Source of the DNA: an uncultured bacterium
GTDB taxonomy: Bacteria; Patescibacteriota; Patescibacteriia; Patescibacteriales; UBA12465
Direction of reading: 5' to 3'
Assembly: GCA_938003925.1 (NCBI GenBank)
Contig: CALKWQ010000047.1
Coordinates: 1,048 to 65,047 of the forward strand
DNA length: 64,000 nucleotides
Part shown: in pieces, positions 189 through 22,864 of the stretch
Layout: each line of letters begins with the position of its first letter
Position numbering within the stretch: the first letter of the stretch is position 1
Made by a program: the position numbers and the translations under genes
The notes under the pieces: model-generated
The model's input: only the letters and a program-made list of their open reading frames with translations
What the model was told of the DNA's origin: nothing
Database searches by the model: none

Positions 189-235
189 ATTTTATAAAAT
201 TATATAAAAATTATACCATTTTTTGAAAACAGAAA

Positions 236-387
236 ACAGTAATAGGATTAGAACCTAAAATCTACTTTATTTACGCTTTTTTCTTATTTAACTCCAACAA
301 AAAACATGACCTAAATCATGTTTCTTTGTACTTTGGCTAATGTTTAATGCCTTGTGTCACTCTTAAACACCAAAATTTTGTTGGCTC
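236..387 (-). repeat. Diverged third copy of the ~190-bp tRNA-3'-flank module (see 20501-20688 and 21976-22162)
   Basis: The landmarks occur in the same order as in the other copies. They are a T-loop-like ggattagaacc (245-255), tttatttac, and a hairpin aaacatga-N6-tcatgttt (302-323). Then tcttaaacaccaaaattttgttggctc (361-387) follows, differing at 1 of 27 positions from 22111-22137. Confidence 0.6.
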
Positions 388-480
388 TGCAGATTACATA
401 TTTTCAGAATTATATAACATTTTTCCTGCCGTTAAGATTAGTTTAGACAAATTAAAAAGGATTGCCGTGTTTAGCAACCC
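384..480 (-). repeat. Cassette-boundary module copy R1 (75-bp core + terminator hairpin)
   Basis: The core at 384-458 is gctctgcagattacatattttcagaattatata...attagtttagacaaattaaaaa. It is collinear without indels with 1111-1185, 2544-2618 and 3040-3114. The hairpin at 459-480 (minus: GGGTTGC-taaacac-GGCAATCC followed by TTTTTAATTT) sits just after the stop of gene 507..1028. Confidence 0.8.
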
Positions 481-506
481 TTTGTGATAAGCTAATTTCA
501 ATTTAC

Positions 507-1028
507 TTATTCAAATAAAAATTGAAAATAACCTCTCCTGTCTGTGTCGTCATGCCAGTAGGGCAGCTTGCCCCAATGTTCATCAACATTGTCACAAATT
601 TGGACAAATGAGCTACCGGTAACTTTAGCAAGAACAGCTGCGCTTACAGCAGCATCTTCTTCTGCGGTCAGGCCAGATGTTGACGCTCTTAAAAGTCCTT
701 CATTGTCTTCGTGTCCTGGTAGTTCATTAAGAAATACTGAAAGACTGCCAGAAAATTGCATAGTAGCAACATCTTCCGAATTACCTGATGACATATCAGA
801 CAAAATATGCGATCTTACAGCCTTCTCAACAGCAAAAAATCTGGCAGCCTCGGATGGCTCTTTAATGGAAACCATAACCAAGTTTCTTGTTCCCGGCTCC
901 CAAACGATAACCTGTATTCCGGTTCTTTCTTTGTCGTCCGGACGAACACTTTTCGGCATGTTTACAAACTTTTCAAACATTTCTGTGGCAACAGAAATAA
1001 TATCCTGTCTTTTTTCATTCAAATCCAT
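507..1028 (-). CDS. Hypothetical protein, 173 aa (cassette gene)
   Basis: Clean ORF with an AGGAG ribosome-binding site 7-8 nt upstream of the ATG at 1028. It has its own TTGACA promoter and downstream terminator. GC is visibly higher than in neighbouring cassettes. No family recognised. Confidence 0.6.
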   Translation of the reverse strand: MDLNEKRQDIISVATEMFEKFVNMPKSVRPDDKERTGIQVIVWEPGTRNLVMVSIKEPSEAARFFAVEKAVRSHILSDMSSGNSEDVATMQFSGSLSVFLNELPGHEDNEGLLRASTSGLTAEEDAAVSAAVLAKVTGSSFVQICDNVDEHWGKLPYWHDDTDRRGYFQFLFE

Positions 1029-1076
1029 TTTCTGATCTCCTATTTTTAGTTAAACAAATTGTTAATGTAATAAAAA

Positions 1077-1106
1077 ATAATACCATAAAGATATTATTCT
1101 TGTCAA
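1077..1106 (-). promoter_or_regulatory. Sigma-70-type promoter for gene 507..1028
   Basis: Minus strand reads TTGACA (1106-1101), an 18-nt spacer, then TATTAT (1082-1077). The spacer and -10 form the inverted repeat AATAATA/TATTATT. Confidence 0.55.
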
Positions 1107-1110
1107 TAGA

Positions 1111-1185
1111 GCTCCCCAGATTACATATTTTCAGAACTATGTAATATATTCCCTGCCCTTATGATTAGTTTGGGTAAATTAATAA
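1111..1185 (-). repeat. Cassette-boundary module copy R2 (75-bp core, no terminator hairpin)
   Basis: gctccccagattacatattttcagaactatgtaatatattccctgc...attagtttgggtaaattaataa. It is collinear with R1, R3 and R4 and starts 14 nt after the stop of gene 1199..2362. Confidence 0.75.
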
Positions 1186-1198
1186 GAATTTAGTTAAA

Positions 1199-2362
1199 TT
1201 AAGTCGTTTTAAATTCTTTTTCATGCAAGTTATAGTTCCATTTATCATGATAGTAGGTATCGTTACTATTTTCAGCAATTTCATTAAAGATACGCTTGAA
1301 GAATTCAGGCTTTGTGGTATTGATAAATTGCCTGGAATCTTCAGATAGCTTACCCTTCTTATACAGATCAATTAATTGTTTATAGTGATCATCAGTAAAT
1401 TCTTCACCATATTTCTTTAAACCTAAAGACTCCATTTCCGCCTCTAGTACTTGCTTGCGAGCATAACGTTCTTCTTGACTATTAAAATAATTACCCAAAA
1501 TCCTTTTTGTTTCCTCTAAATCCTTAACGCTAGTATTTTTAAGATAATCTTTAAATTCAGGCTCATCCCAATTAATTTTTTTACCAGAATGGCCTATTAA
1601 CCTATTTGCCTTACGAGAATAATTACGACCATCAACTAATTTATGGCCAATCACTTCATGTTCAACTACAAAGTCATGCTTTTCACTGTTTTTGGGCAGA
1701 ACGACGGAAAATCTTTTTTCATCGCTTGTATAATTAGCTTCATTATCTGCTAAATAATAACCGCCCATCTCTAAATTATTTAATCTTTTTAATTGATGTT
1801 CTTTAGCCGTCTCCATGTCCACATTGTACTCAACCATTAGTTTTTCAAGATATTCGGGACTAGCAATATGCTCTGCCAAAAGTTTGATCTTAGCATCGTA
1901 ATATTCAAAATCTTTCTTATTTTGAATAAAATCTTCTTGCTCAAAGTGAACATTACCAACATTTTTTGTTTCTAAATTAGGATTTTTTAAATATTCTTCA
2001 TAGGCGCTAATGAGCGATTGAATCTCATCTAAATTTTCTACCGAAAGACGTCTTCTCGCTTTTTCTAGAGCTTCTTTTACCCTTTCTATATTATAAGATA
2101 ATAAGCTGTCGGGATTCTCTTGTCGATATCTAACATCAGCTCCGATATAATTCTTCTTCGATAAATCATACTCTCTCTCTACGGGCTGTTCAGGATGAGA
2201 ATATTCTTTATTAATTGTATCCTGATTCTTATCTATTTGCTCCTGAGCTTGAGCTTCTCCCGCAATAATACCAACACCAATACCAGCTATTAGGGCTCCT
2301 TTTCTAAGAATTCTTTCTCCCCGTTCCTTTCCTTTGTGCACAAATGATTCAAATTTAAACAT
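1199..2362 (-). CDS. Hypothetical membrane-anchored or secreted protein, 387 aa (cassette gene)
   Basis: N-terminal hydrophobic segment ALIAGIGVGIIAG followed by a long hydrophilic region. It contains VVEHEVIGH, which is HExxxH-like rather than canonical HExxH. No family recognised. Confidence 0.6.
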   Translation of the reverse strand: MFKFESFVHKGKERGERILRKGALIAGIGVGIIAGEAQAQEQIDKNQDTINKEYSHPEQPVEREYDLSKKNYIGADVRYRQENPDSLLSYNIERVKEALEKARRRLSVENLDEIQSLISAYEEYLKNPNLETKNVGNVHFEQEDFIQNKKDFEYYDAKIKLLAEHIASPEYLEKLMVEYNVDMETAKEHQLKRLNNLEMGGYYLADNEANYTSDEKRFSVVLPKNSEKHDFVVEHEVIGHKLVDGRNYSRKANRLIGHSGKKINWDEPEFKDYLKNTSVKDLEETKRILGNYFNSQEERYARKQVLEAEMESLGLKKYGEEFTDDHYKQLIDLYKKGKLSEDSRQFINTTKPEFFKRIFNEIAENSNDTYYHDKWNYNLHEKEFKTT

Positions 2363-2543
2363 ATGTTTGTATTATAATATGACTATATTATAGCTTAATT
2401 TTGTAAAATTTAAAATTAATTAGTACATTCAATGTTGAAGTACAATACCTGCCTTTTCATAAAATAACTTTATAACGCCAAAAAGTTCTATCTCCCATCC
2501 GGGGTATAACAAAAAACCCAATATTAATGGGGTTTTTAGCTTA

Positions 2544-2645
2544 GCTCTGCGAATTACATATTTTCAGAATTATATAATATATTCCCTGCTATAAAAATTA
2601 GTTTAGATAAATTAAAAACCCTGAAACTTTTTTGTCTCAGGGTTT
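2544..2645 (-). repeat. Cassette-boundary module copy R3 (75-bp core + different terminator hairpin)
   Basis: Core at 2544-2618. The hairpin at 2617-2645 reads on the minus strand AACCCTGA-N11-TCAGGGTT followed by TTTT, after the stop of gene 2664..2960. A second hairpin with a T-run (AAACCC-N9-GGGTTTTTT on minus) lies at ~2513-2537. Confidence 0.75.
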
Positions 2646-2663
2646 AACTAAAAAATAATTGGC

Positions 2664-2960
2664 TTATTCACATTTATCACGAATCATCAAATCTTTGTCT
2701 TCGCGTATAATCACCCAACCATTTTCTAAGAGCGTTTTCGTGAAATATCCCAGTTGAAAATTTAAAACGCTATCAATTACGATATCTGTAACGAATTTGG
2801 AATTTTTTTCACTATAACGATGACTCTCTACCATGCCGAAGTAATTTTCCACGGCTTCAAAAGCTGTTTCTCGAGGCAGCACAAATGGTAAGCTGTCTTC
2901 TTTTTCAAATATAATCCAACAATGAACAGGATTATTTACTCTTAACTGAATTGATTTCAT
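2664..2960 (-). CDS. Hypothetical protein, 98 aa (cassette gene)
   Basis: The track ORF 2664..3035 starts at a TTG that is really the TTGACA -35 box. The first ATG (MKSIQLRVNN) is at 2960, downstream of the promoter at 3007-3035. Confidence 0.55.
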   Translation of the reverse strand: MKSIQLRVNNPVHCWIIFEKEDSLPFVLPRETAFEAVENYFGMVESHRYSEKNSKFVTDIVIDSVLNFQLGYFTKTLLENGWVIIREDKDLMIRDKCE

Positions 2961-3006
2961 TATCTTGATTTTAAGGTTCAACAATACTATTTTAACTAAC
3001 AAAAAA

Positions 3007-3035
3007 AGTATACCATACAGTATACTTTTTGTCAA
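3007..3035 (-). promoter_or_regulatory. Sigma-70-type promoter for gene 2664..2960
   Basis: Minus strand reads TTGACA (3035-3030), a 17-nt spacer, then TATACT (3012-3007). This is the same architecture as the core infA-operon promoter at 59907-59935. The spacer and -10 form the palindrome AGTATAC/GTATACT flanked by A5/T5. Confidence 0.6.
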
Positions 3036-3039
3036 CAGA

Positions 3040-3136
3040 GCTCTGCAGATTATATATTTTCAGAGTTATATAATATATTTCCTGCTGTTAAATTAAGTTT
3101 AGACAAATTAAAAAGGATTGTCGTGTTTGACAATCC
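3040..3136 (-). repeat. Cassette-boundary module copy R4 (75-bp core + terminator hairpin homologous to R1)
   Basis: Core at 3040-3114. The hairpin at 3115-3136 reads on the minus strand GGATTGTC-aaacac-GACAATCC followed by TTTTTAATTT, after the stop of gene 3157..3516. Confidence 0.8.
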
Positions 3137-3156
3137 CCTTAAATAAATTCTTGTTT

Positions 3157-3516
3157 TTAATTAACCGGTGGGGTGTAGCGACAAGAATAGTATTCTACCG
3201 AAAAAGATGGCTTTAACTCCTCAATTTTTCTGATGGCTAAAGCCTCGTCGAAAAAATTACCAGATTTTTCCCTGAGCACATCCTCGCTCACATTTCCGTC
3301 TTTTGCCAAACTTCTCGCCTCTTCAGTAAGTTCAACAATTACTTCAGCCGTAGGGTCAATATACTTTTTAAGGCCACCATCAATTTTCTCATAAACAGTA
3401 ATAATACTGCTTGAAGGCTCAATGGCTATACCAAAGGTTAAAACTGGTAATATATAATCCATAAAAAACTTTTCAATCTCGGCGTTTCTTTCACCGCCCT
3501 TAAGTATTACTTTCAT
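3157..3516 (-). CDS. Hypothetical protein, 119 aa (cassette gene)
   Basis: Strong Shine-Dalgarno (AGGAGG) about 8 nt upstream of the ATG at 3516. It has its own promoter and terminator. No family recognised. Confidence 0.6.
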   Translation of the reverse strand: MKVILKGGERNAEIEKFFMDYILPVLTFGIAIEPSSSIITVYEKIDGGLKKYIDPTAEVIVELTEEARSLAKDGNVSEDVLREKSGNFFDEALAIRKIEELKPSFSVEYYSCRYTPPVN

Positions 3517-3567
3517 TATAAAGTCCTCCTATTTTATGTTGTTAATATGCGATTTGATAACACAAAA

Positions 3568-3596
3568 AGCATACTATAATGTATGCTTTTTGTCAA
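3568..3596 (-). promoter_or_regulatory. Sigma-70-type promoter for gene 3157..3516
   Basis: Minus strand reads TTGACA (3596-3591), a 17-nt spacer, then TATGCT (3573-3568). The spacer and -10 form the palindrome AGCATAC-tataat-GTATGCT flanked by A5/T5. Confidence 0.55.
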
Positions 3597-3600
3597 TAGA

Positions 3601-3635
3601 GCTCCCCGTGTCAGATTAGAACCTTGAATTCGGGG
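3601..3635 (-). repeat. tRNA-3'-end-like remnant (module copy R5, truncated)
   Basis: Minus strand reads CCCCGAATTCAAGGTTCTAATCTGACACGGGGAGC, followed by TCTATTGACA exactly as in R2. GGTTCTAATC resembles a T-loop and ...GGGGAGC an acceptor 3' strand. Compare the real tRNA end GGGTTCGAATCCCACCCTGGGAGCCA. Confidence 0.5.
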
Positions 3636-3784: not shown

Positions 3785-6481
3785 TTATATTTTAAATTTA
3801 GCCTTCAATAAATGCACATCCCTTTTATTAAATTTTTTAACAAGATTATTTAATATTTTATTCCCTATTTCCGGGGTCCAATATATTTTTAATTTTTCCT
3901 TTGATCTGGTGATTGCTGTATAAAAAATATTATGGGAAATCATTTCTTCTGTTTCATCAGTAATGACAATCTTGACAGAGTTATATTCCAACCCCTGCGC
4001 CTTATGTATAGAAACGGCGTAAGCTACCTGAAAAGGAACGACAGAACTTGAATTGTCACCATCATCATCGGTGCTTTTTAATTTATTCACAGAAAATCTA
4101 ATTACAGATTTATTATTTTTTGATTCTCCTAACAGCTCTAATCCATCATAAGCCACCACATTCATTTCATTTATAGACTTATCAATCTCGATATCAAACT
4201 GCACAATATCACCAAGAACATTTATGCCAAATATTTTTCCTTTAAGATTATTGTGGATTAAAGGACTAAATCTATTAGATTCATTAAATAATATAGGGTC
4301 GCCGACTTTATAAGTATGAATACCCCATTGATAAGACTTATTTCCATTATTGCCCTGCAAGAATCTATTTACATTATTTATTCCATATAACCCATCATAA
4401 TTTAAACACAAAATTATTTCATCATCTTCCGAGCTCTCAAATATAGTTTCATCCAAACATTGTGAATAATGATTATTTACTAAATATTCAGCTATATCAT
4501 CTTCAATATTTCTAACTTTCTCCCATAAAGTAAGCAGGTCTTTGTTTTTCGTTCTGTGCGGTGTAGTAAGCTCAAAAACTGATGTCTTAGGAAGAAATGA
4601 TCTCGCTATTCCAAACCAATTTCCAAATAAAATAGATTCAATTTGGTAATCATCCCCAACTAAAACCAACAATGTAAAGCTTGCTTTCTTTAAAATACCT
4701 AGCATGTCAGAATTACTTACCGTACTGCACTCATCAATAATTAATAAATCAAATTCTAAGTCTTGACCACTTTTTAAAAAGCTCGCTATTGTTTGAAATT
4801 TGGAATTGCCAACATTAATTCTTCTTTCTAAATTTTGAACGGCGGGGTGGGTATTGGCTAGAAAAAGCTTCCTTTCGTCCTTATAGAAATTAGAAATATG
4901 GTTTATGAGTCTTGTCTTTCCAGTACCAGCAGATCCATATATCATTCCAACACAGGAATTTGCAAATACATTTCTGAGAATACCTTTTTTTTCTTCGCAA
5001 TCAACTCCGTGACTATCTGACTGAAGCCATGAATCAATAGAGTTGGAATAATTTTTAATTCCAAAAACAGATAACTCTTTTAATTTTTCTATTATATGAA
5101 GTGCGTCATCCTCATATTCTTTTATATAAACAAAATCTTTATATTTTTCTAGTTTGCGACTTCCGTGTCCACTCCATAATTTATGATTATACGCACTAAT
5201 TTTATTTTCGATATCTTCTATATTTACTAATTCTTTAAGATTCGTATATAGCTGTCCTTTTTGCTCTGTGTTGTTTTTAATTATTCTTGCTAAAAATTCG
5301 TGTTCTCGATTTTCCGTATTAATACAGTCAATTACATCAGTAATCTTAGCACAATGATTAATGGGCATGCTAACAAGCGGCATATCATCAAACGGTTTAC
5401 ATCCCCATTTTAAATTCAAATTTGATAGCCCAGGACATATATTGTTATTATATTGTGGTTTAAGTATTCTGTTATTAAGTTTATATAATAGGTATCTTAA
5501 AATATTACTGCCAGGACTATCTGCTTTTATTAATCTACGACTTTTGTCCAGAATATCAAAAAAATGATTAGCTTTTGCACTTTTTAAAACAGCATTTTTG
5601 AAACGTTGATAATATTCATCAGAAAATTCAATAACATCAACCAAATTCAATCCAGTCGTTGTTAAAAGTGACATTAAATTACTAGATTCACTTGAAGTGT
5701 CAGATAAGTTTGAATGTTTACCAAATATATCAGCAAAGTGATTAAGTTCACACGGACGAATTGCAACACTCCAATTATCAATTATTTGAATCGGCATTGT
5801 TTTACCAAAAACCTCAATAACATCATTGCGGATAATAAGTCTTACCGAATAGTTTGATAATATATCTAATTTAGTAAACGCAATAACTCTGTCAAATTTA
5901 CTCGTATCATCAATAGCTGTTGTAAAAGTTATTTCATAATACACTTCATTATTAACAAAAAATGGTTTAACTTTTCTTATATAATACCTATCGCTGTAAT
6001 CATTTTTTTCTCCTTTTAAAACCGGCTGATTGATTTTTTTAGCAATCTTCTCATAATAATCTTGAAGTGCAGTATCAATTTTAATAGGAAAACTACTAAT
6101 ATTTTCCAAGACATCAAAATTATATTTCTGTTTTAAAAATGATTTAATTTTTAAAAGATATTCATAATACTTGAGCATTAATCTTTCAGCCCCATCTTCA
6201 TCTGGTAAATAATGGGAAACTGTTTTTTGAAGAAACTTGTGAAATTTTTTTAAAAACTGCAAATCGGCTTTTGTAGAAATATACAATTTAGCTTTATTTT
6301 GAAAAATTTTATAACTATATTCACTTTCTCCACAAGCTTTTACGGCGACCGCTTCCACAAAAGTTCTTAGTTGCCCTAAAATAGTTTGCGAGAAAAAACC
6401 TCTTTCGTCAGATTTAAGGTTTTTAATAATATTACATATTGCGTCAGAAGATGTTCTGATTTGCTCATCGGTTTTTCTCAT
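3785..6481 (-). CDS. SF1 (RecD/Dda-like) helicase with a large unassigned N-terminal region, 898 aa
   Basis: The C-terminal ~380 aa carry Walker A GSAGTGKT, Walker B LLIIDECS, VLVGDDYQ, TTPHRTKN, SIHKAQGLEYNSV and FYTAITRSKEKL (AAA_30 / UvrD_C_2-type pattern). The first ~520 aa carry no motif I recognise. The track start at 6490 is GTG; the first ATG is at 6481. Confidence 0.8.
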   Translation of the reverse strand: MRKTDEQIRTSSDAICNIIKNLKSDERGFFSQTILGQLRTFVEAVAVKACGESEYSYKIFQNKAKLYISTKADLQFLKKFHKFLQKTVSHYLPDEDGAERLMLKYYEYLLKIKSFLKQKYNFDVLENISSFPIKIDTALQDYYEKIAKKINQPVLKGEKNDYSDRYYIRKVKPFFVNNEVYYEITFTTAIDDTSKFDRVIAFTKLDILSNYSVRLIIRNDVIEVFGKTMPIQIIDNWSVAIRPCELNHFADIFGKHSNLSDTSSESSNLMSLLTTTGLNLVDVIEFSDEYYQRFKNAVLKSAKANHFFDILDKSRRLIKADSPGSNILRYLLYKLNNRILKPQYNNNICPGLSNLNLKWGCKPFDDMPLVSMPINHCAKITDVIDCINTENREHEFLARIIKNNTEQKGQLYTNLKELVNIEDIENKISAYNHKLWSGHGSRKLEKYKDFVYIKEYEDDALHIIEKLKELSVFGIKNYSNSIDSWLQSDSHGVDCEEKKGILRNVFANSCVGMIYGSAGTGKTRLINHISNFYKDERKLFLANTHPAVQNLERRINVGNSKFQTIASFLKSGQDLEFDLLIIDECSTVSNSDMLGILKKASFTLLVLVGDDYQIESILFGNWFGIARSFLPKTSVFELTTPHRTKNKDLLTLWEKVRNIEDDIAEYLVNNHYSQCLDETIFESSEDDEIILCLNYDGLYGINNVNRFLQGNNGNKSYQWGIHTYKVGDPILFNESNRFSPLIHNNLKGKIFGINVLGDIVQFDIEIDKSINEMNVVAYDGLELLGESKNNKSVIRFSVNKLKSTDDDGDNSSSVVPFQVAYAVSIHKAQGLEYNSVKIVITDETEEMISHNIFYTAITRSKEKLKIYWTPEIGNKILNNLVKKFNKRDVHLLKAKFKI

Positions 6482-6483
6482 AT

Positions 6484-6639
6484 TTAACACATTGAATCAT
6501 TTTTTGGGGGGATAATTTTACCGTCCTTAATCTCATAGCCTTCTTTAATTAAACGGACATGAATCTGCTTTAGCGCATTATAGAATCCAGCAAAATTTTC
6601 TATTTCTTTTTCAGTAAATATATCCTTATTTTTCTTCAT
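6484..6639 (-). CDS. Unannotated micro-ORF, 51 aa, between the DUF6119-like and helicase genes
   Basis: Own translation: MKKNKDIFTEKEIENFAGFYNALKQIHVRLIKEGYEIKDGKIIPPKNDSMC. It starts 10 nt after the upstream stop and ends 2 nt before the helicase ATG, filling the only gap in the operon. It is below the ORF-track length cut-off and has no clear Shine-Dalgarno. Confidence 0.35.
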   Translation of the reverse strand: MKKNKDIFTEKEIENFAGFYNALKQIHVRLIKEGYEIKDGKIIPPKNDSMC

Positions 6640-9940: not shown

Positions 9941-10013
9941 TTGTATTTATCTATCGCCAAAGTACTGGTGTCTACTGATATTCTGAAGTTGTAAGAAACT
10001 AAACATTAATTTT

Positions 10014-11345
10014 ATGCAAAACAACAATCTAAAAATCGTGGAAGTTGCGATCAACCAACTTAACCTCGCACCATACAATCCCAGAAAGCACACTCGTGAG
10101 CAGATGATTCAGCTTCAAGAATCAATTAAGAGGTTTGGGATCGTGGACCCCGTGATTCTAAACGGTGTGCCGGAAAGACTAAATGTCGTTATAGGTGGAC
10201 ACATGCGCCTGCAAGCTTTACATGAGCTTGGTGAAACAATAGTTCCGGCTGTCTATGTCCATATAGCAGACATAGAAAAAGAAAAAGAATTAAATTTGCG
10301 TCTTAATAAAAATACTGGCGAATTCGATTATAATCTCTTAGCCGAATTCGATGAATCATTTCTTCAAGACGTTGGATTCAGTAGTGAAGAAATCGATGAC
10401 ATATTCCCGGTCGAAATAGCTACCGATCAATTCGATTTAAAGAAAGAATTGGAAAGACTTCAGATTACTGAAGTAAAAGCCAAGACCGGCGATGTCTATA
10501 ACTTAGATGGGTCAAGACTTCTGGTCGGAGATTCAATGATAGAAGAAAACATGATGACGCTGATGGATGGAAACAAGGCCGACATGTGTCTTACCGATCC
10601 CCCTTACATCCTCGATTACTTAAAAGGAAAAACTAAAAATAAAGATGGAGTAACTGAAGGCTTTGGTGCTAAGAAGAATCGGATATATATCGGTACCGAA
10701 TCATTGCCGGATAATTTTACCGAACTCTGGATGGGCAATATCAGTAAAGTGGCTAAAGATAATTTTTCAATCATCGTCTATGAAAATTGGAAGAACCTAA
10801 GGACTATCTGGAGTGAGATGGAAAAATATTGGAAGGTGAAAAATATGATCGTCTGGCATCTACCCAATCGAGTACAGGGTTTCTCAGTCAAGCATAAATT
10901 TTTCAATAAACATGATATTGCCATAACCGGCGGAAGCGAGGATGTTGAGCTAAATACGGAAAGCGAAGGCGATGAGCTATTGGATAATGAATATGAAACT
11001 GCCCTATATGCTATTTCCGGCAATCCTTATTGGGAATCATATGGCAGGGGCAAAAAGATATGCCCAACCGATTTCATTGAATACATTGCTGATGATGCGA
11101 AATCTTCCGGACAAGGCATTATCTTTGGCACTAAGCCATTAGAGATACTTATCCCCTATATTAAAGTCTTAACTAAACGTGGGGATTTGATAGTTGAACC
11201 TTTTGGCGGAAGCGGGTCGACGCTTATCGCTTCTGTAAGGATGGGGCGCCGCTGCTTCATTATGGAAAAGTGTCCTATCTATGCTGAGGTAATTATCAAA
11301 AGATGGGAAAAAGAAACTGGAAAAACCGCCCTTAAGTTAAATTAA
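10014..11345 (+). CDS. ParB-like nuclease domain fused to a DNA methyltransferase (N6A/N4C type), 443 aa
   Basis: The N-terminus is ParB/Srx-like (LNLAPYNPRKHT...IGGHMRLQAL). The methyltransferase motifs are CLTDPPY and the AdoMet motif EPFGGSGSTLIA. This architecture is typical of phage or plasmid orphan methyltransferases. Confidence 0.8.
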   Translation: MQNNNLKIVEVAINQLNLAPYNPRKHTREQMIQLQESIKRFGIVDPVILNGVPERLNVVIGGHMRLQALHELGETIVPAVYVHIADIEKEKELNLRLNKNTGEFDYNLLAEFDESFLQDVGFSSEEIDDIFPVEIATDQFDLKKELERLQITEVKAKTGDVYNLDGSRLLVGDSMIEENMMTLMDGNKADMCLTDPPYILDYLKGKTKNKDGVTEGFGAKKNRIYIGTESLPDNFTELWMGNISKVAKDNFSIIVYENWKNLRTIWSEMEKYWKVKNMIVWHLPNRVQGFSVKHKFFNKHDIAITGGSEDVELNTESEGDELLDNEYETALYAISGNPYWESYGRGKKICPTDFIEYIADDAKSSGQGIIFGTKPLEILIPYIKVLTKRGDLIVEPFGGSGSTLIASVRMGRRCFIMEKCPIYAEVIIKRWEKETGKTALKLN

Positions 11346-11349
11346 ATAT

Positions 11350-11976
11350 ATGATAGGAGAAGAAACAAAGAAAAAAGTATTAAGCGAGCTAGAAAAATTC
11401 GGAAACGTATTCTATGCCTGTAAAAAGAATGGGGTAAGCACCTCTACTTATTACCGCTGGTTTGAAAATAACAGAGATTTTAGAAAGAAAGCTAAAACAG
11501 CTATTAAAGTCGGGCAAAAGAATTATGTTGATTTAGCCGAAAATAGCTTAATCTCCAATGTCAGCAATAAAGATCAAAGAGCGATAGAATATGTCTTGTC
11601 TCATCTATCAAAAAGATACCGGAAATCAGACGAATCGAAAGTGATAATTGTTCATCGCAAAGATGCTGATAGCTACGCACCAGTAAAAAAGATAACACTT
11701 GAAGATTTATTAGAAGAACATGAAGATAAAGTAGCTAAAGAACAAGCTGAGTGGGATGCAAAAGCTAAACTGGTCTGGGATGAACTGAAAAAGAATGGCG
11801 AAATACCAACAAAACCTACTGGCGAACCAATAGGTTTTGAAGAAGTATATAAATTCAAGGTCTATATAGAAGAATATCAAAAGAAGGCTAAAGAAAATCA
11901 ATCGCAAGCTGGGCTTAAAGTCTTAGACGGAAATGTGGATAATAATGCGGATAGCGAATCAAAAGATCTTAAATAA
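11350..11976 (+). CDS. HTH protein, 208 aa (phage terminase-small-subunit-like or homeodomain-like N-terminus)
   Basis: FYACKKNGVSTSTYYRWFENNRDFRKKAK is a typical HTH pattern. The gene is translationally adjacent to the ParB-methyltransferase (4-nt gap). The C-terminal half is charged and low complexity. Confidence 0.5.
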   Translation: MIGEETKKKVLSELEKFGNVFYACKKNGVSTSTYYRWFENNRDFRKKAKTAIKVGQKNYVDLAENSLISNVSNKDQRAIEYVLSHLSKRYRKSDESKVIIVHRKDADSYAPVKKITLEDLLEEHEDKVAKEQAEWDAKAKLVWDELKKNGEIPTKPTGEPIGFEEVYKFKVYIEEYQKKAKENQSQAGLKVLDGNVDNNADSESKDLK

Positions 11977-13022
11977 CTCGCATCTAAACCTTTCCAGCCA
12001 TCGCAAGATTCAGGATAATAATACTTCGAAGTGCTATATGAGGAAGTGTAATATTTGTTAGACGAGGTTGTGGCGACAGTGCTAGAAACGGTCGAGGATA
12101 CAGAAGATGAATCGGCCGCTTTAGTCGTATCACCATTACAGGTATCAGCCGCCCATAAGCCACGCAGATTAGTGCTTGCTTCTTTTTGAGCTTCCTTAAA
12201 CTGAGCTTGATATTTATATGGCTTGTTATAGGTATATTCATGGGCGTAGCCATCTCTTATCATCTTGTCATTATAGAAAGTGCCGTCTTCTAAATAGACA
12301 TATTTTAATGGCCTGGAATATTTATCTAATTCTTCAGTAGTAGAATCATTTTCTAATCTCACCATCTTGCCGGATAATAATTCTTTGGCCTTAGCTGAAG
12401 CTTCTTTGCCGAAACATTGGACAACTTTCCTCGGGTCAAGAGTTTCCGGAGTATCCATGCCTATCAATCTGATGGTTGTAGTAGCTCCATTCAAATTTAT
12501 TTTGATAGTATCACCATCAACCACTTCTAATACTTGATATAAAGTTACAGATGAAGAAGAGCTCTTATCTTTATCTGACAATTCAATCTTATTCAAATCG
12601 CTGGTCTTAATACCTAAACCTAATTTGCGCATTATCTGATAAGCGGCTTCACCATCTTTTAGATAATTAGCATTGCCATTTGAATCGATATAATAGGCTT
12701 CACCACGGCTTTGAACTTGTAGTAATATTTTGCCGGCCTGTTTCTTAGCATTATTCTTATTTGCTTTTACCTTATCTAAATCAGAGTTAGTAATACCGAC
12801 ACCGAGCGTGCGCATGATGTTATAGGCTTCTGAACCGTTAGCCATATAATATCTTTTGCCGTCTTTTGGACTGACATACCAGGCTTCGCCATGAGATTCG
12901 ACTTGAAGTAGAATCTTTCCCTTCATTTTAGAAGACAAGCTCTCTGCCCCAAATGTTTTAAATGGGATTATTCCTAAAGCAATAATTATTGCTAAAGAAA
13001 TAAATAATAATTTCTTTTTCAT
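11898..13022 (-). CDS. Secreted thermonuclease (staphylococcal-nuclease fold) with duplicated N-terminal repeats, 374 aa
   Basis: A signal peptide MKKKLLFISLAIIIALGIIPF is followed by two ~50-aa repeats (GKILLQV(E/Q)S(H/R)GEA(W/Y)Y...). The SNase core is VVDGDTIKI...IRLIGMDTPE...FGKEASAKAKELL...DKYSRPLKYVYLEDG...MIRDGYA. The tail is Ser-rich with Cys...Cys. Confidence 0.85.
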   Translation of the reverse strand: MKKKLLFISLAIIIALGIIPFKTFGAESLSSKMKGKILLQVESHGEAWYVSPKDGKRYYMANGSEAYNIMRTLGVGITNSDLDKVKANKNNAKKQAGKILLQVQSRGEAYYIDSNGNANYLKDGEAAYQIMRKLGLGIKTSDLNKIELSDKDKSSSSSVTLYQVLEVVDGDTIKINLNGATTTIRLIGMDTPETLDPRKVVQCFGKEASAKAKELLSGKMVRLENDSTTEELDKYSRPLKYVYLEDGTFYNDKMIRDGYAHEYTYNKPYKYQAQFKEAQKEASTNLRGLWAADTCNGDTTKAADSSSVSSTVSSTVATTSSNKYYTSSYSTSKYYYPESCDGWKGLDASYLRSFDSLSALLSTFPSKTLSPACD

Positions 13023-13023
13023 A

Positions 13024-13287
13024 TTATTTCTTTATCATAGATAATATCCATTCCTGGCATTTATTAGCCCAAGTAGCTGGCATCTTTGTTTTAGCTAGCT
13101 CAGCGCCATGGCCGATAATTTTTAATTCCCCCTGCCCTAAACCGACGACATCTACCACGACAGTTTCGATATCGCTAACCATTACCCTGAAAGTCTTACC
13201 ATAGGGATGTTGGAAACAAAGGAAACCATCCTTAATCTTTAAAGTTCCTCCGGCACCCAATAAACCTATCTTCATTTTTTCTTCCAT
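13024..13287 (-). CDS. Small hypothetical protein, 83-87 aa, upstream of and co-transcribed with the nuclease
   Basis: The track ORF starts at GTG 13365, inside the structured GC-rich element. Plausible starts are MEEKMKIG (13287) or MKIG (13275, preceded by GGAAG). Its stop lies 1 nt before the nuclease start. Confidence 0.5.
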   Translation of the reverse strand: MEEKMKIGLLGAGGTLKIKDGFLCFQHPYGKTFRVMVSDIETVVVDVVGLGQGELKIIGHGAELAKTKMPATWANKCQEWILSMIKK

Positions 13288-14952: not shown

Positions 14953-14956
14953 AACA

Positions 14957-18030: not shown

Positions 18031-18033
18031 ATA

Positions 18034-20500: not shown

Positions 20501-20688
20501 GTAAAAGCTGATTCTCGGATTCGAACCAAAAATCCCCTTTATTTACAGGCCTTTCCGCTTATTTGACTTAAACAAAAGAACTCAGCGCAAACTGAGTTCT
20601 TCTGATTTTTTGGTAATATTAGACCTCTCCTGTCGGTCTTAAACACCAAAATGTTGTTGGCTCTCGCAGTGATATTCGAACCTGAGTC
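20501..20688 (-). repeat. Direct repeat copy A of the tRNA-3'-flank module (includes a degenerate tRNA 3' end)
   Basis: 20536-20663 aligns without gaps to 22010-22137, with about 6 mismatches in 128 positions by eye. On the minus strand it starts with GGTTCGAATATCACTGCGAGAGCCA, compared with the real tRNA end GGTTCGAATCCCACCCTGGGAGCCA. It contains the terminator hairpin AGAACTCAG-N6-CTGAGTTCT. Confidence 0.85.
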
Positions 20689-20729
20689 GGTCTTAAAACA
20701 CGATTATCCTCTGCTGTATTTAATATTAG

Positions 20730-21374
20730 CTAAAAATCTATTACTTGTCTTAAAACTTTTAACAACGAGTTGAATAAAATTTCATGTCCAGATTCGTTAG
20801 GATGCAACCCATCTTCGCAGAACAATCTCTTATAGTCATTATCCATAAAAGCCGAATTAACATCGATAAGATAAATGCTTTTGTTATCAGCTATTTTCTT
20901 AATTCTTTCATTATACTTGTTTACATACTCATTAAGTCTAGACTTATCTTTGTTAATAGGATGAGCGGTCAATTCTTCATCAACAGGAGCAATATTTAGA
21001 ATAAATATTTTATTACCAAATTTTTTAGCCTGATCTATTGTATTCACCAAATTATTTTCAAAATTATCAACTTCAACTCGAAATTTATTTTGGCTTGGAA
21101 TAATAGCCGAATCATTTGCTCCATAAGCAAAGATAAAAATATTTTCTTCTTGCTTCTCTTCTCTAATTCTCGCTTTGATTTCCGGTAGAAAACGATTGAC
21201 CAAACCTTCAGTTGTTTCGCCTGGAATCCCTAAATTATATGTTAAAAAATAAAGACTATCATCTTCCTCTTGTTTTTTATCTAAATATATTCTTAATTTT
21301 TGTGCCCACCCAGAAGAGTCCACGTCCCAAGCACCATATGTTATGCTATCTCCAAAACAAAATATTTGCGCCAT
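20730..21374 (-). CDS. SGNH/GDSL-family hydrolase, 214 aa
   Basis: Block I is FCFGDSITYG, block III is YGANDS, and block V is DGLHPN. The track ORF is extended upstream; ATG at 21374 (MAQIFCFGDS) fits the family and abuts the upstream gene. Confidence 0.8.
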   Translation of the reverse strand: MAQIFCFGDSITYGAWDVDSSGWAQKLRIYLDKKQEEDDSLYFLTYNLGIPGETTEGLVNRFLPEIKARIREEKQEENIFIFAYGANDSAIIPSQNKFRVEVDNFENNLVNTIDQAKKFGNKIFILNIAPVDEELTAHPINKDKSRLNEYVNKYNERIKKIADNKSIYLIDVNSAFMDNDYKRLFCEDGLHPNESGHEILFNSLLKVLRQVIDF

Positions 21375-21975: not shown

Positions 21976-22162
21976 GTAAAACTGGCAGTGGGATTAGAAC
22001 CACAAATATCCTTTATTTATAGGCATTTCCGCTTATTTGACTTAAACAAAAGAACTCAGTACAAACTGAGTTCTTTCGATTTTTTGGTAATATTAGACCT
22101 CTCCTGTCGGTCTTAAACACCAAAATGTTGTTGGCTCCCAGGGTGGGATTCGAACCCACGAC
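21976..22162 (-). repeat. Direct repeat copy B of the tRNA-3'-flank module (contains the genuine tRNA 3' exon end)
   Basis: See copy A. The portion at 22132-22162 is the T-arm and acceptor 3' strand of the tRNA. The rest is the tRNA downstream region, with the hairpin AGAACTCAG-N6-CTGAGTTCT and a second T-arm-like box GTGGTTCTAATCCCAC (minus, ~21986-22001). Confidence 0.85.
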
Positions 22163-22172
22163 CAATTGGTTA

Positions 22173-22722
22173 CACTTACCCACTAATTTCTTAATGGTGT
22201 GGACTATATCATCATCCAAAATGGATGCAAGGCGCTTCGGGCCGTCTAACTAGACAGACCTACTCCCTTTCGGGATAGTCTCTGAACCTTACCTGAATAC
22301 ACAGGTCTTGGCTGCTGATTACCTTAGCCTCTCGGCCTTAGGCTTCCAGACAGTTCACCTTGTTTTCATTCCTCAATTACTTGAGGAAGCTGCGTGTTGC
22401 TTTCATGCGCCTCACGATGACAGTTTGCACATAACAATAGACACTTATCTAACTCTCTTCTTATGACTGCCCAGCTCCTGGTATAACCTTTTGCAGAGAT
22501 ACCAAAATCTTTTTTGTCAGATTCCAAATGATGGAATTCTAGAGCCTTCAAACATCTATTGTAACCGCAAACGGAACATTTGCCACCTTTGTATTCAAGA
22601 GCCAATTGACGTAGGCGCTTACGCCTCCGATCAACTGCTAACTTCAAATACTGGGCGCGATCAGCATATTTTCTCTTATCCTTTGTCATAATTACTATGA
22701 TAGCAAAAGATAAAGTGTGTTC
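22173..22722 (-). mobile_element. Group I intron in the tRNA anticodon loop, carrying an HNH endonuclease ORF
   Basis: The classical conserved group I elements are readable on the minus strand. Q-like AATCAGCAGCC is at 22320-22310, R GGTTCAGAGACTAT at 22288-22275, and S GATGATATAGTCC ends at 22201. GACTA/TATAGTC can form P7. GNRA-capped hairpins GGCC-GAGA-GGCT and CCC-GAAA-GGG are present. A G precedes the 3' exon. The exact splice sites are inferred. Confidence 0.8.
22366..22689 (-). CDS. HNH homing-endonuclease-like protein, 107 aa (intron-encoded)
   Basis: CSVCGY...LEFHHLESDKKDFGIS...LLLCANCHREAHE is a His-Me finger with CxxC...CxxC zinc ligands. It lies entirely inside the intron and starts ~33 nt after the 5' splice site. 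Confidence 0.8.
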   Translation of the reverse strand: MTKDKRKYADRAQYLKLAVDRRRKRLRQLALEYKGGKCSVCGYNRCLKALEFHHLESDKKDFGISAKGYTRSWAVIRRELDKCLLLCANCHREAHESNTQLPQVIEE

Positions 22723-22864
22723 ACAGCCAACTGCGCTACCGCTGCGCTACCTGGGAATATTAAATTGTTACCAAACAAAAAATGTTGCATTCAACATTTC
22801 CCCTTTATTTTAGGAGAAATCAAGGCCTAAGTCAATAGGCTATTTTCAGCTTAAATTAAGAAAA

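What the first reader, a model, noticed from the sequence alone, without database searches (positions are those of the whole stretch)
384..3635. Array of single-gene cassettes separated by a conserved 75-bp module that ends like a decayed tRNA 3' end
Four small unrelated ORFs (173, 387, 98 and 119 aa), all on the minus strand, are each bounded by the same intergenic module. The 75-bp core occurs at 384-458, 1111-1185, 2544-2618 and 3040-3114. The four copies are collinear without indels and have high identity by eye. In the direction of transcription each unit reads as follows. After the gene stop comes a GC-rich terminator hairpin, homologous in R1 and R4, different in R3 and absent in R2. 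Next comes TTTTTAATTTGTCTAAAC...TATATAATTCTGAAAATATGTAATCTGCAGAGC. Then comes either CCAacaaaattttggtgtttaaga, the sequence that follows the real tRNA at 22132, or TCTnTTGACA-17/18-TATnnT, the promoter of the next gene. The segment TTCTGAAAATATGTAATCTGCAGAGCCA looks like a degraded version of the copy-A remnant TTCGAATATCACTGCGAGAGCCA. That remnant is in turn a degraded version of the tRNA end TTCGAATCCCACCCTGGGAGCCA. The pattern suggests repeated site-specific insertion of promoter-gene-terminator cassettes into an att site derived from the tRNA 3' end. This is an integron-like accretion logic, but no IntI or attC signature is visible. Alternatively, the core contains a conserved TATAAT and each module has a downstream hairpin with a T-run. 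Each module could therefore encode a ~55-100-nt small RNA.
Basis: partly seen in the sequence, partly recalled or inferred. Interest (0 to 1): 0.7.

Follow-up and report, generated by a model that had tools for sequence, protein, structure and literature searches.

The report
tRNA-anchored array of single-gene cassettes
Four unrelated small genes at the far end of a 22-kb defence island are separate insertion units that piled up behind a tRNA-Asn gene, and the repeated 77-base module is the conserved right-end junction of each unit, which resembles an integron but probably depends on a serine recombinase.

Summary
Four collinear, indel-free copies of a 77-nt module lie at 384-460, 1111-1187, 2544-2620 and 3040-3116. 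Each follows one minus-strand ORF and ends in GAGC.

- **Hotspot.** The window is a Falkowbacteria-like Patescibacteria genome. Its 30%-GC island sits behind an intron-split tRNA-Asn(GUU). In six relatives, six different sequences follow this tRNA's ...GGGAGC.
- **Filled site.** One relative (L010) carries only the 173-aa cassette plus module, inserted between the tRNA end and a motif that follows the tRNA directly in another relative.
- **Recombinase.** One large serine recombinase (LSR) element shows the same junction, GAGC|ATTGAAGAAAAATC, behind tRNA-Asn, tRNA-Gln and a tRNA-like remnant.
- **Wider pattern.** Other genomes hold arrays of up to about ten units built as promoter, ORF, terminator, tRNA-like remnant ending in GAGC or a near variant.
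- **Module.** It occupies the position of that remnant. It has no conserved fold and no Rfam match, so the sRNA reading is not supported.
- **Left ends.** They resemble the PeSL promoter/stem-loop motifs of T4-type phages.

Best reading: accretion of cassettes at a tRNA 3' end, with integron-like logic. LSR action on the small cassettes in trans is inferred, not shown. I rate it a new variant of known kinds, interest about 0.6.

The parts
384..460 (-). Module R1. It is the right end of the 173-aa cassette, ends in GCAGAGC, and is followed by CAACAAAATTTTGG (a copy of the tRNA-downstream block).
456..483 (-). Terminator hairpin type A of the 173-aa cassette (AAAGGGTTGCTAAACACGGCAATCCTTT followed by a T-run).
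   Evidence: the same hairpin type occurs at R4 and in L010 and L019
507..1028 (-). 173-aa ORF (C173 family). Homologues occur in many Falkowbacteria genomes and in at least five different neighbourhoods. The predicted fold is GlcG/DUF336-like.
1077..1110 (-). [quoted passage not shown]
1111..1187 (-). Module R2. It is the right end of the 387-aa cassette, ends in GGGGAGC, and has no terminator hairpin upstream.
1199..2362 (-). 387-aa ORF. By my reading it has a hydrophobic N-terminal segment and an HEVIGH (HExxH) motif. No family match.
2477..2543 (-). Left end of the 387-aa cassette: TAAGCTAAAAACCCCATTAATATTGGGTTTTTTG, a terminator hairpin homologous to the sequence following tRNA-Asn in L009.
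2544..2620 (-). Module R3, the right end of the 98-aa cassette. It is 94% identical to the L003 copy that follows an unrelated 118-aa ORF.
2616..2645 (-). Terminator hairpin type B (AAACCCTGAGAC...GTTTCAGGGTTT), shared with copies in L003, L005 and L007.
2664..2960 (-). 98-aa ORF (ATG at 2960), an ORFan.
3007..3039 (-). Left end of the 98-aa cassette: TCTG, then TTGACA-17-TATACT with the palindrome AAAAAGTATAC/GTATACTTTTT.
3040..3116 (-). Module R4, the right end of the 119-aa cassette.
3111..3140 (-). Terminator hairpin type A of the 119-aa cassette.
3157..3516 (-). 119-aa ORF, an ORFan.
3568..3600 (-). Left end of the 119-aa cassette: TCTA, then TTGACA-17-TATGCT with the palindrome AAAAAGCATAC/GTATGCTTTTT (compensatory relative to the 98-aa cassette).
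3601..3623 (-). tRNA-like 3' remnant GGTTCTAATCTGACACGGGGAGC. It is the right end of the large island segment and the junction to the first cassette.
226..383 (-). Copy B of the roughly 155-nt 'tRNA-downstream' block. It begins CAACAAAATTTTGG and ends in a second T-loop-like motif. It marks the distal border of the island.
20660..20736 (-). 'Type 2' end module (copy A). It has a T-loop-like GGTTCGAAT, ends in GAGAGC, and is homologous to L002 6832-6905. Its 5' block aligns with the 77-nt module.
20504..20659 (-). Copy A of the tRNA-downstream block, part of a 179-nt repeat that is 88% identical to the copy behind the tRNA.
21978..22131 (-). The tRNA-downstream block directly behind the tRNA.
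22132..22172 (-). tRNA-Asn(GUU) exon 2. The attachment point is after GGGAGC (GAGC spans 22137-22134).
22173..22722 (-). Group I intron in the anticodon loop, with an HNH ORF at 22689-22366.
22723..22756 (-). tRNA-Asn(GUU) exon 1.

Best explanation
The 77-nt module is the conserved right-end junction sequence of small integrase-less gene cassettes. The cassettes have piled up one behind another at the 3' end of tRNA-Asn(GUU) in a Falkowbacteria-like Patescibacteria genome.

**Unit structure.** Read in the tRNA direction, each unit has four parts:
- A left end that starts 0-5 nt after a GAGC. In three of the four window cassettes it is TTGACAAAAA plus a stem-loop that overlaps the -10 box. This is a composite promoter and stem-loop.
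- One ORF.
- An intrinsic terminator.
- A right end that finishes in GAGC. This is either a tRNA-3'-like remnant or, in this lineage, the 77-nt module.

**Proposed mechanism.** Insertion happens immediately after the discriminator G and first C of the tRNA (...GGGAGC|), and probably also after the GAGC of an existing unit. Older units are therefore pushed away from the tRNA. In the window, the four cassettes now lie about 19-22 kb from the tRNA, behind a 17-kb defence island and a 1.5-kb element.

**Proposed enzyme.** The most likely enzyme is a large serine recombinase of the family seen in relatives. Its gene lies antisense against the tRNA end, with the junction GAGC|ATTGAAGAAAAATC. The cassettes would be passengers mobilised in trans: their left end mimics the recombinase element's P' arm (TTGAAGAAAAA versus TTGACAAAAA) and the module's last 26 nt mimic its P arm. 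After insertion, homologous exchange between the repeated promoter and terminator-module blocks probably reshuffles them.

**Shown by sequence comparison:** the units, the exact junctions, the hotspot, the filled-site comparison and the LSR junctions.

**Inferred:** LSR action on the small cassettes, the role of the module as a half-site, and the order of accretion.
For: 1. **The module marks ends.** All 13 copies found (window x4, L001, L002, L003 x2, L004, L005 x2, L007, L010) sit at the 3' end of a different ORF. All have the same orientation relative to the local cassette genes and tRNA-like remnants. Each is followed either by a cassette promoter or by a tRNA-downstream-type hairpin.

2. 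**Filled-site comparison.** L010 reads tRNA-Asn ...CCCTGGGAGC|AAACCTTGACA, then a 172-aa orthologue (85% nt identity), hairpin A, module ...GCAGAGC|AAATATTAAATAGGCTAATATTAG. L015 reads tRNA-Asn ...GGGAGC|AAGAAAAATAGGCTAATATTAG.

3. **Hotspot.** Six different sequences follow the same GAGC of tRNA-Asn in six related genomes.

4. **Recombinase.**
- An identical P' arm, ATTGAAGAAAAATCGCTTTTATTTGTGATTTC, follows tRNA-Asn (L026), tRNA-Gln (L027) and a tRNA-like remnant (L001), always after GAGC.
- Thirteen of the 14 sampled homologues of this LSR end in antisense-tRNA peptide tails such as ...SSMLGDRDSNP or ...RRERDSNPR.
- A second, 25%-identical LSR lies antisense against tRNA-Asn in L017.

5. **Arrays elsewhere.** L019 (about ten gene units), L024, L027 and L028 show the pattern terminator, tRNA-like remnant ending in GAGC or a near variant, 0-5 nt, TTGACAAAAA-palindrome promoter. 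L024's array starts at a tRNA scored by Rfam.

6. **C173 homologues have five different upstream neighbours**.

7. **Module 3' end resembles the right-end remnants of L019.** Identity is 12-13 of 22 positions, shuffle p 0.002-0.005. The module's 5' block aligns with the 'type 2' end module, which carries a T-loop-like motif.

8. **A remnant in L027 keeps GAGC|ATTGAAGAAAAAT followed by a hairpin.** This is intermediate between the LSR P' arm and a cassette left end.
Against: - No recombinase of the junction-associated family is in the window. The window's LSR (13600-14952) is 35% identical to it, lies in a nested higher-GC segment, and has no tRNA-like 3' end.
- The spacer between GAGC and TTGACA varies from 0 to 5 nt. 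This is awkward for a serine-recombinase half-site at a fixed register.
- An LSR half-site needs only about 25 bp, so the conserved 5' 50 nt of the module is unexplained.
- Module similarity to tRNA-Asn itself is not significant. The P-arm comparison was chosen after inspection and is not corrected for multiple tests.
- C173 is widespread in the clade, and its divergence could be largely vertical. Part of its varying context could therefore come from insertions and deletions around a resident gene.
- No circular or excised forms were observed, because no reads were available.
Confidence: 0.6

Rival explanations
1. Modular shuffling of the PeSL type without a dedicated recombinase. In this view the repeated blocks (terminator plus module plus promoter/stem-loop) are regulatory cassettes. 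Their sequence identity lets homologous or microhomology-mediated recombination delete, duplicate and swap the ORFs between them, as described for T4-type phage hyperplastic regions.
For: - The left ends have a sigma-70 promoter with a stem-loop between or overlapping the -35 and -10 boxes. This is the commonest PeSL layout (PMC2839356).
- Five different stem sequences keep perfect complementarity.
- Two promoter/5'UTR subtypes and two terminator subtypes occur with unrelated ORFs.
- Module relationships are network-like rather than orthologous. L010's copy is closer to wR4 (92%) than to its positional orthologue wR1 (86%).
Against: - The junctions to genuine tRNA ends share only GAGC with the module. 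That is too short for homologous recombination.
- The same junction point is used by LSR-bearing elements.
- This process could reshuffle an array but cannot found one. It is best seen as a complement to the main explanation.
Confidence: 0.2
2. Each module encodes a small RNA, or an antisense RNA, transcribed from the TATAAT-like box inside it and ending at the next hairpin.
For: - The core contains an almost invariant TATATAAT-like box.
- A plus-strand TTGTCA-18-TATATT/CATATT match exists at R4 and R2.
- Hairpins with T-runs lie downstream of R2 and R4.
Against: - RNAalifold on 12 copies gives -3.7 kcal/mol and no compensatory pair.
- There is no Rfam match at gathering threshold or at E-value up to 1.
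- No -35 element is conserved. R1 and R3 lack the plus-strand match.
- What lies downstream differs completely between copies.
- In other arrays the same position is filled by a roughly 30-nt tRNA-like remnant.
Confidence: 0.05
3. The cassettes are non-autonomous single-strand (HUH / IS200-IS605-like) or MITE-like transposable units. They would insert 3' of the tetranucleotide GAGC and carry the same tetranucleotide at their own right end.
For: - Insertion occurs immediately 3' of a fixed tetranucleotide that is repeated at the element's right end.
- A subterminal perfect hairpin with compensatory variation lies about 10 nt inside the left end.
Against: - None of the ORFs submitted to Pfam from the window island, L001 or L005 matched a Y1/HUH transposase or TnpB family.
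- The module has no stable hairpin.
- No terminal inverted repeats were found.
- Copies occur only in tRNA-linked arrays.
- LSR genes sit exactly at these junctions.
Confidence: 0.05
4. The array is debris. Repeated integration of full-size LSR elements, followed by deletions, left one cargo gene and one att remnant each time. The small units were never mobile themselves, and the module is a passively inherited scar.
For: - L027 holds a scar, GAGC|ATTGAAGAAAAAT, in which the LSR gene has been deleted.
- Tandem integration and degenerate remnants are documented for tRNA-targeting elements (tycheposon preprint 10.1101/2020.12.28.424599).
Against: - A scar would decay independently in each copy. 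Instead, 12 copies behind unrelated ORFs in at least six assemblies keep one consensus, with 38 of 77 columns invariant.
- The best matches of window copies are in other genomes (94%, 92%).
- The left ends are equally uniform promoters placed 0-5 nt after GAGC.
- L010 shows a clean one-cassette insertion.
Confidence: 0.1

Closest known systems
Integrons (IntI, attI, attC cassette arrays)
   Same: - Array of mostly single-ORF units, all in one orientation.
- Each unit carries a conserved recombination-site-like sequence at its 3' end.
- Units appear to accrete at one fixed entry point, and cassette content differs between close relatives.
- The cassettes encode no recombinase.
   Different: - No IntI-type tyrosine recombinase was found.
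- The module has no attC-like folded hairpin.
- Each cassette has its own strong promoter and terminator, instead of relying on a common Pc promoter.
- The entry point is a tRNA 3' end, not attI.
- The shared core is only GAGC, and the candidate enzyme is a serine recombinase.
tRNA-targeting integrative elements with tandem accretion (tycheposons of Prochlorococcus; by my own recollection also CIME/ICE accretion in streptococci and mobilisable genomic islands)
   Same: - An intact tRNA lies at one end, with partial tRNA-like copies between successive elements.
- Newer elements push older ones into the island.
- Some elements use large serine recombinases.
- Some units lack an integrase.
- The cargo includes defence genes (for tycheposons).
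   Different: - Units here can be as small as about 500 bp with one ORF.
- Units have uniform promoter and terminator ends.
- The crossover lies at the extreme 3' end (after the discriminator plus C), so almost no tRNA sequence is duplicated.
- In this lineage the inter-unit repeat is a derived 77-nt module, not a recognisable partial tRNA.
- The host is a CPR bacterium.
PeSL mobile regulatory cassettes of T4-type phages (Arbiol et al. 2010, PMC2839356)
   Same: - Conserved intergenic motifs combine a sigma-70 promoter with a stem-loop placed between or over the -35 and -10 boxes.
- The motifs flank ORFans in hyperplastic regions.
- They are proposed to mediate modular shuffling and mini-circle formation.
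   Different: - PeSLs are in lytic phage genomes and act through recombination between the motifs themselves.
- Here the motifs lie in a bacterial chromosome behind a tRNA.
- Each motif is coupled to a GAGC-terminated att-like sequence and, in relatives, to a serine recombinase.
Large-serine-recombinase integrative elements (phiC31/Bxb1-type attP x attB integration)
   Same: - In relatives, an LSR with Resolvase, Recombinase and Zn-ribbon domains lies at the element edge.
- The hybrid junctions share only a few bases.
- Integration is directional and leaves the target gene intact.
   Different: - One element uses at least three different tRNA or tRNA-like 3' ends as targets.
- The LSR ORF reads antisense into the tRNA.
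- Integrase-less one-gene passengers have not, to my knowledge, been described for LSR systems.

Membership tests
Integron | IntI-type tyrosine recombinase next to the array | tested here: not met
   Pfam scan of 24 ORFs across window 1-24 kb found no Phage_integrase domain. The only recombinase found is an LSR.
Integron | attC sites: imperfect inverted repeats that fold into a conserved hairpin | tested here: not met
   The consensus fold of 12 module copies is -3.7 kcal/mol with 0 compensatory pairs. No inverted repeat was reported within the module.
Integron | Mostly promoterless cassettes expressed from a common Pc promoter | tested here: not met
   Each cassette has its own promoter match (9-11 of 12 positions), and three of four have an intrinsic terminator.
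Integron | Array of single-ORF cassettes in one orientation, with content varying between strains | tested here: met
LSR-mediated integrative element | Large serine recombinase (Resolvase + Recombinase + Zn_ribbon_recom) at the element border | tested here: inconclusive
   Met in relatives: L001, L026 and L027, plus a frameshifted copy in L017. In the window the LSR lies mid-island and not at a GAGC junction.
LSR-mediated integrative element | attL and attR share only a very short core, and the same P' arm is joined to different B arms | tested here: met
   GAGC is the only shared block. An identical P' arm follows three different tRNA or tRNA-like ends.
LSR-mediated integrative element | Recombinase-dependent attP x attB recombination of the cassette ends | not testable with these tools
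   This needs an in vivo or in vitro recombination assay.
tRNA-anchored island built by tandem accretion (tycheposon-like / CIME-like) | Intact tRNA at one border and repeated partial tRNA 3' ends or att copies inside and at the far border | tested here: met
   tRNA-Asn at 22132-22756. tRNA-like ends at 20660-20682 and 3601-3623. Three copies of the downstream block.
tRNA-anchored island built by tandem accretion (tycheposon-like / CIME-like) | Elements carry integrase plus replication modules | tested here: inconclusive
   The L001 and L027 elements carry an LSR plus a Rep_ORF2-G2P/RepSA-like protein. The window cassettes carry neither.
PeSL regulatory cassette | Sigma-70 promoter combined with a stem-loop between or overlapping the -35 and -10 boxes, upstream of ORFans | tested here: met
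   definition taken from PMC2839356
PeSL regulatory cassette | Located in hyperplastic regions of T4-type phage genomes | tested here: not met
   The setting is a bacterial chromosome flanked by rpoD, dnaG and other core genes. There was no match in phage records or viral contigs.
Small RNA gene | Own promoter, defined 3' end, conserved secondary structure or a known family | tested here: not met
MITE / IS200-IS605-type non-autonomous element | Terminal inverted repeats or subterminal hairpins at both ends, a cognate transposase, dispersed copies | tested here: not met
   No TIRs. No hairpin in the module. No transposase family matched among the ORFs scanned in the window island, L001 and L005. 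Copies occur only in tRNA-linked arrays.

The most novel reading that the evidence does not exclude
A serine-recombinase counterpart of the integron exists in CPR/Patescibacteria. In this reading, integrase-less one-ORF expression cassettes are excised as circles and re-inserted in trans by a tRNA-3'-end-specific large serine recombinase. Each cassette has a P'-like promoter/stem-loop left end and a terminator plus P-like module right end. Insertion would occur both at tRNA ends and at the GAGC of resident cassettes, giving these tiny genomes a dedicated gene-capture and expression platform.
Probability: 0.35. Interest if true: 0.85.

Novelty: new variant of a known kind. Interest (0 to 1): 0.62.

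Why it matters
Patescibacteria have very small genomes, and little is known about how they acquire genes. Three points would make this locus useful if the reading holds.

- **A different way to build cassette arrays.** It would be a compact, self-expressed cassette system fed by a serine recombinase at tRNA 3' ends. That is a different enzyme class and a different site type from integrons, yet it produces a similar array.
- **A possible tool.** The LSR family seems to accept several tRNA 3' ends with a crossover right after the discriminator. The tRNA stays intact. Such an enzyme, with conserved and ubiquitous landing sites, could be of practical interest.
- **A link between two systems.** The locus combines the promoter/stem-loop shuffling motifs known from T4-type phages with site-specific integration.

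If the cassettes prove to be inert scars, the finding reduces to an ordinary tRNA-linked island with unusually tidy remnants.

Tried and rejected
- **Module in viral contigs, phage records and plasmid records.** No relevant match, so the module is not a known phage or plasmid repeat.
- **Conserved RNA or ssDNA structure in the module.** None found. Rfam gave nothing relevant at gathering threshold or at a permissive E-value.
- **dif/Xer-like or other tyrosine-recombinase core inside the module.** By eye there is a 9-8-9 imperfect inverted repeat, ATTATATAA-TTCTGAAA-ATATGTAAT. I rejected it as the crossover site because a crossover there would replace the tRNA's 3' end, whereas L010 keeps the authentic tRNA sequence up to GAGC.
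- **The window's own LSR as the responsible enzyme.** It has no att-like sequence at its 3' end and lies in a separate higher-GC segment.
- **Exact look-up of the 173-aa protein.** This failed. A homologue search worked instead.
- **Function of cassette proteins.** Pfam, PADLOC and PHROGs gave no match for the window ORFs. Only C173 gave a fold hint, DUF336/GlcG-like.
- **Right end (attR) of the L001 LSR element.** I could not define it within the 8 kb held.
- **Direct alignment of the module to tRNA-Asn.** Not significant.
- **GC-rich segments before tRNA-like ends in L001 and L027.** No Rfam family matched.

Full report
**1. Observation**

The repeat is real. The repeat finder returns one family of four direct copies at 384-480, 1111-1207, 2544-2640 and 3040-3136. 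They are in register without gaps. A 29-nt core pattern with up to three mismatches hits only these four places in 64 kb, against zero hits in 100 shuffles. Over the 77-nt core the copies are 77-90% identical to each other.

The four ORFs (173, 387, 98 and 119 aa) are all on the minus strand. None matches a Pfam, PADLOC or PHROG family.

**2. Anatomy of one unit, read on the minus strand**

- After the stop codon comes an intrinsic-terminator-like hairpin at R1, R3 and R4 (483-456, 2645-2616, 3140-3111). R2 has none.
- Next comes the module, TTTTTAATTTGTCTAAAC...TATATAATTCTGAAAATATGTAATCTGCAGAGC.
- R2 and R4 are followed by TCTnTTGACA-17/18-TATnnT, the two best sigma-70 matches in the region (11 of 12 positions).
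- A third such promoter follows a tRNA-like remnant at 3623-3601, GGTTCTAATCTGACACGGGGAGC|TCTATTGACA.
- R1 is followed by CAACAAAATTTTGGTGTTTAAGA. With one mismatch, the same sequence follows the tRNA end and the 'copy A' remnant.
- R3 is followed by a different terminator hairpin (2543-2477).

**3. Setting**

- Positions 1-22,000 have about 30% GC, against about 44% for the rest of the window.
- The border is a tRNA that ARAGORN misses because a group I intron splits its anticodon loop. The intron is RF00028 at 79.6 bits and carries an HNH ORF.
- Intron-less orthologues in L009 and L017 are called tRNA-Asn(GUU).
- The island carries a DpnII restriction-modification system, a DndB/DpdB-like gene, a full-length PDC-S53 helicase, DUF6119, an RNase H, and a nested higher-GC segment with a large serine recombinase.
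- The roughly 155-nt block that follows the tRNA occurs three times: 21978-22131, 20504-20659 and 226-383.
- The island is therefore composite. In the tRNA direction the order is: tRNA, a 1.5-kb element, a 17-kb defence segment, four cassettes, then the distal copy of the downstream block.

**4. The module elsewhere**

- Exact-pattern scans found the module in three other MAGs and three metagenome contigs. All are Patescibacteria-like. L004 and L006 come from contigs of identical length with the same profile score, so I treat them as the same contig.
- A profile search added a diverged copy in L005 and one in L010.
- Viral contigs, phage records and plasmid records gave nothing relevant.
- All 13 copies sit at the 3' end of a different ORF. 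All have the same orientation relative to the local cassette genes and tRNA-like remnants.
- Each is followed either by a cassette promoter or by a hairpin of the tRNA-downstream type.
- In L004/L006 a single copy closes a restriction/defence island.

**5. Cassette gain and loss at one point**

I fetched the rpoD neighbourhood of relatives.

- L010 is about 90% identical in the core. It reads tRNA-Asn ...CCCTGGGAGC|AAACCTTGACA, then the orthologue of the 173-aa gene (85% nt identity), hairpin A, and the module ...GCAGAGC|AAATATTAAATAGGCTAATATTAG.
- L015 reads tRNA-Asn ...GGGAGC|AAGAAAAATAGGCTAATATTAG.
- The shared 17-nt motif (AAATAGGCTAATATTAG) follows the tRNA directly in L015 and follows the cassette in L010. 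GAGC is present on both sides of the L010 insert. I read this as a filled versus unoccupied site, although L015's flank continues into its own small-gene region.
- Across six relatives, six different sequences follow the same GAGC.
- In L009 the occupant starts with the hairpin that in the window follows R3.

**6. A recombinase at exactly this junction**

- L001 carries an LSR with Resolvase, Recombinase and Zn-ribbon domains, 35% identical to the window's LSR.
- Its 3' end overlaps, in antisense, a tRNA-like sequence.
- Thirteen of the 14 sampled homologues end in antisense-tRNA peptide tails, such as ...KSDFSSMLGDRDSNP or ...RRERDSNPR.
- At DNA level the same arm, ATTGAAGAAAAATCGCTTTTATTTGTGATTTC, follows GAGC in three places: behind tRNA-Asn (L026), tRNA-Gln (L027) and a tRNA-like remnant (L001).
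- A second LSR, 25% identical and frameshifted, lies antisense against tRNA-Asn in L017.
- One LSR element therefore uses several tRNA 3' ends, with the junction immediately after the discriminator G and the first C.
- This fits serine-recombinase chemistry, in which partner sites share little beyond a 2-bp core (established knowledge). It does not fit tyrosine integrases, which need a longer identical overlap.

**7. Arrays are common in the clade**

- Homologues of the 173-aa protein lie in long one-orientation arrays of small genes in L019 (about ten gene units), L024 and L028. L027 has a similar array behind its LSR element.
- The intergenic regions there read: terminator; a 25-30-nt tRNA-like remnant (CCGTTCCRAnTATATCYCAAAYTCCGAGC or GGTTCGAACATCGTCCATGACCCCGAGC, with some copies ending in a near variant of GAGC); 0-5 nt; then TTGACAAAAA, a palindrome and a -10 box.
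- L024's array begins at a tRNA recognised by Rfam. L003's array lies about 90 nt downstream of another.
- The 173-aa gene has five different upstream neighbours.

**8. What the module is**

- It occupies the position of the tRNA-like remnant.
- Its last 22 nt before GAGC match the L019 remnants at 12-13 positions (shuffle p 0.002-0.005). The comparison was chosen after inspection and is uncorrected.
- Direct similarity to tRNA-Asn is not significant.
- A second end-module type (window 20660-20736, L002 6832-6905) shares the module's 5' block and carries a T-loop-like GGTTCGAAT. I regard it as a plausible intermediate.
- The module has no conserved fold and no Rfam match.
- It keeps one consensus behind unrelated ORFs, with 38 of 77 columns invariant in 12 copies.
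- The closest relatives of window copies are in other genomes (94% and 92%).
- It is therefore either under constraint or spreading, and is not a passively decaying scar.

**9. Left ends**

- Twenty-two TTGACA sites passed a screen for a -10-like hexamer plus either a G-N-G-C within 6 nt upstream or a perfect inverted repeat of at least 6 bp. Fifteen of them carry the G-N-G-C and 18 carry the inverted repeat.
[quoted passage not shown] Five different stem sequences occur.
- This is the commonest layout of the PeSL motifs of T4-type phages (PMC2839356).
- The stem-loop plus T-run would also supply a terminator for the tRNA after insertion. This is my inference.
- TTGACAAAAA resembles the LSR element's arm TTGAAGAAAAA.
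- L027 contains the scar GAGC|ATTGAAGAAAAAT followed by a hairpin, which is intermediate between the two.

**10. Mechanism and rivals**

- Best explanation (confidence about 0.6): site-specific accretion of one-gene units at the tRNA 3' end, probably by an LSR acting in trans. The module would serve as the P-arm-like right end, and later shuffling would occur by homologous exchange between the repeated blocks.
- Shown: the units, the junctions, the hotspot, the filled-site comparison and the LSR junctions.
- Inferred: LSR action on cassettes and any function of the module.
- Points against: no junction-type LSR in the window, the variable GAGC-TTGACA spacer, and the unexplained 5' 50 nt of the module.
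- Rivals: PeSL-style shuffling alone (0.2), deletion debris (0.1), an sRNA gene (0.05) and an HUH or MITE-type element (0.05).

**11. Comparison and verdict**

- The logic is integron-like, but three of the four integron features tested are not met. There is no IntI, no attC fold, and the cassettes carry their own promoters.
- The locus fits the known class of tRNA-anchored islands built by tandem integration. It is unusual in its one-ORF granularity, its uniform expression ends, its extreme-3' crossover and its host.
- I rate it a new variant of known kinds, with interest 0.62.

Noticed in passing
window 22132-22756 (minus): tRNA-Asn(GUU) is interrupted in the anticodon loop by a 550-nt group I intron carrying an HNH ORF (22689-22366). 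Relatives show an intron-less allele (L009, L017). L015 and L026 have a much shorter interruption that seems to lack the ORF.
   Followed up: partly
L001 4576-6102; L026 104-1732; L027 10001-11539; proteins P0121-P0213: ORFs of one large-serine-recombinase family run antisense into, and sometimes through, the adjacent tRNA. This gives C-terminal tails such as GDRDSNP or RRERDSNPR that change with the tRNA targeted.
   Followed up: yes
L001 6640-6830 (minus); L027 2230-2440 and 3750-3960 (minus): GC-rich segments of about 170 nt, rich in GAGCGA, lie directly before tRNA-like ...CCCCGAGC ends. The L027 2227-2440 stretch that contains one of them folds better than shuffles (z = -2.6). No Rfam family matched in L027. 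Their nature is unknown.
   Followed up: partly
L003 4365-4478 (minus); L024 7477-7547: L003 has a 114-nt tRNA (Rfam 48 bits) with an insertion of about 38 nt in the anticodon loop, just upstream of its cassette array. L024 has a tRNA that ARAGORN misses (by my reading, a CCA anticodon). It is followed directly by a cassette promoter (GTGC|TATTGACA).
   Followed up: partly
window 3785-6490, 14957-16240, 17113-20423: The island is a defence island. It holds a full-length match to the PADLOC candidate system PDC-S53 (901-aa SF1 helicase), a DndB/DpdB-like protein, and a DpnII-type restriction-modification system with two methylases, a DpnII endonuclease and a DUF6996/6997 protein.
   Followed up: partly
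window about 10000-15000: A segment with 38-40% GC lies inside the 30%-GC island. It carries a ParB-methylase fusion, a terS-like HTH protein, a staphylococcal-nuclease homologue and the window's LSR. It is probably a nested element with its own, unidentified att sites.
   Followed up: no
window 507-1028 (minus) and homologues P0241-P0304: The 173-aa cassette protein belongs to a family found in many Falkowbacteria-like genomes. AlphaFold2 models it with pLDDT 94.7. The nearest solved folds are DUF336/GlcG-like heme- or ligand-binding proteins (ORFY, EfgA, HbpS, PduO-C; TM about 0.5).
   Followed up: partly
window 1199-2362 (minus): By my reading of the sequence, the 387-aa cassette protein has a hydrophobic N-terminal segment and an HEVIGH (HExxH) motif. 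This suggests a secreted or membrane-anchored metallopeptidase-like protein. It has no family match.
   Followed up: no
window 226-273, 20498-20545, 21972-22019: Each copy of the roughly 155-nt tRNA-downstream block ends in a second T-loop-like motif (GGTTCTAATCC or GGTTCGAATCC). These may be older tRNA-end remnants nested inside the repeated block.
   Followed up: no
L007 10856-11806: A 316-aa ORF that looks like an rve/DDE-type transposase (not scanned against Pfam) lies between a tRNA-like remnant (...CTCCGAGC) and a cassette promoter. This suggests the junctions also attract insertion sequences.
   Followed up: no
L003 6794-6900 (minus): A SAM riboswitch (RF00162, 61 bits) lies in the flank of the L003 island.
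   Followed up: no
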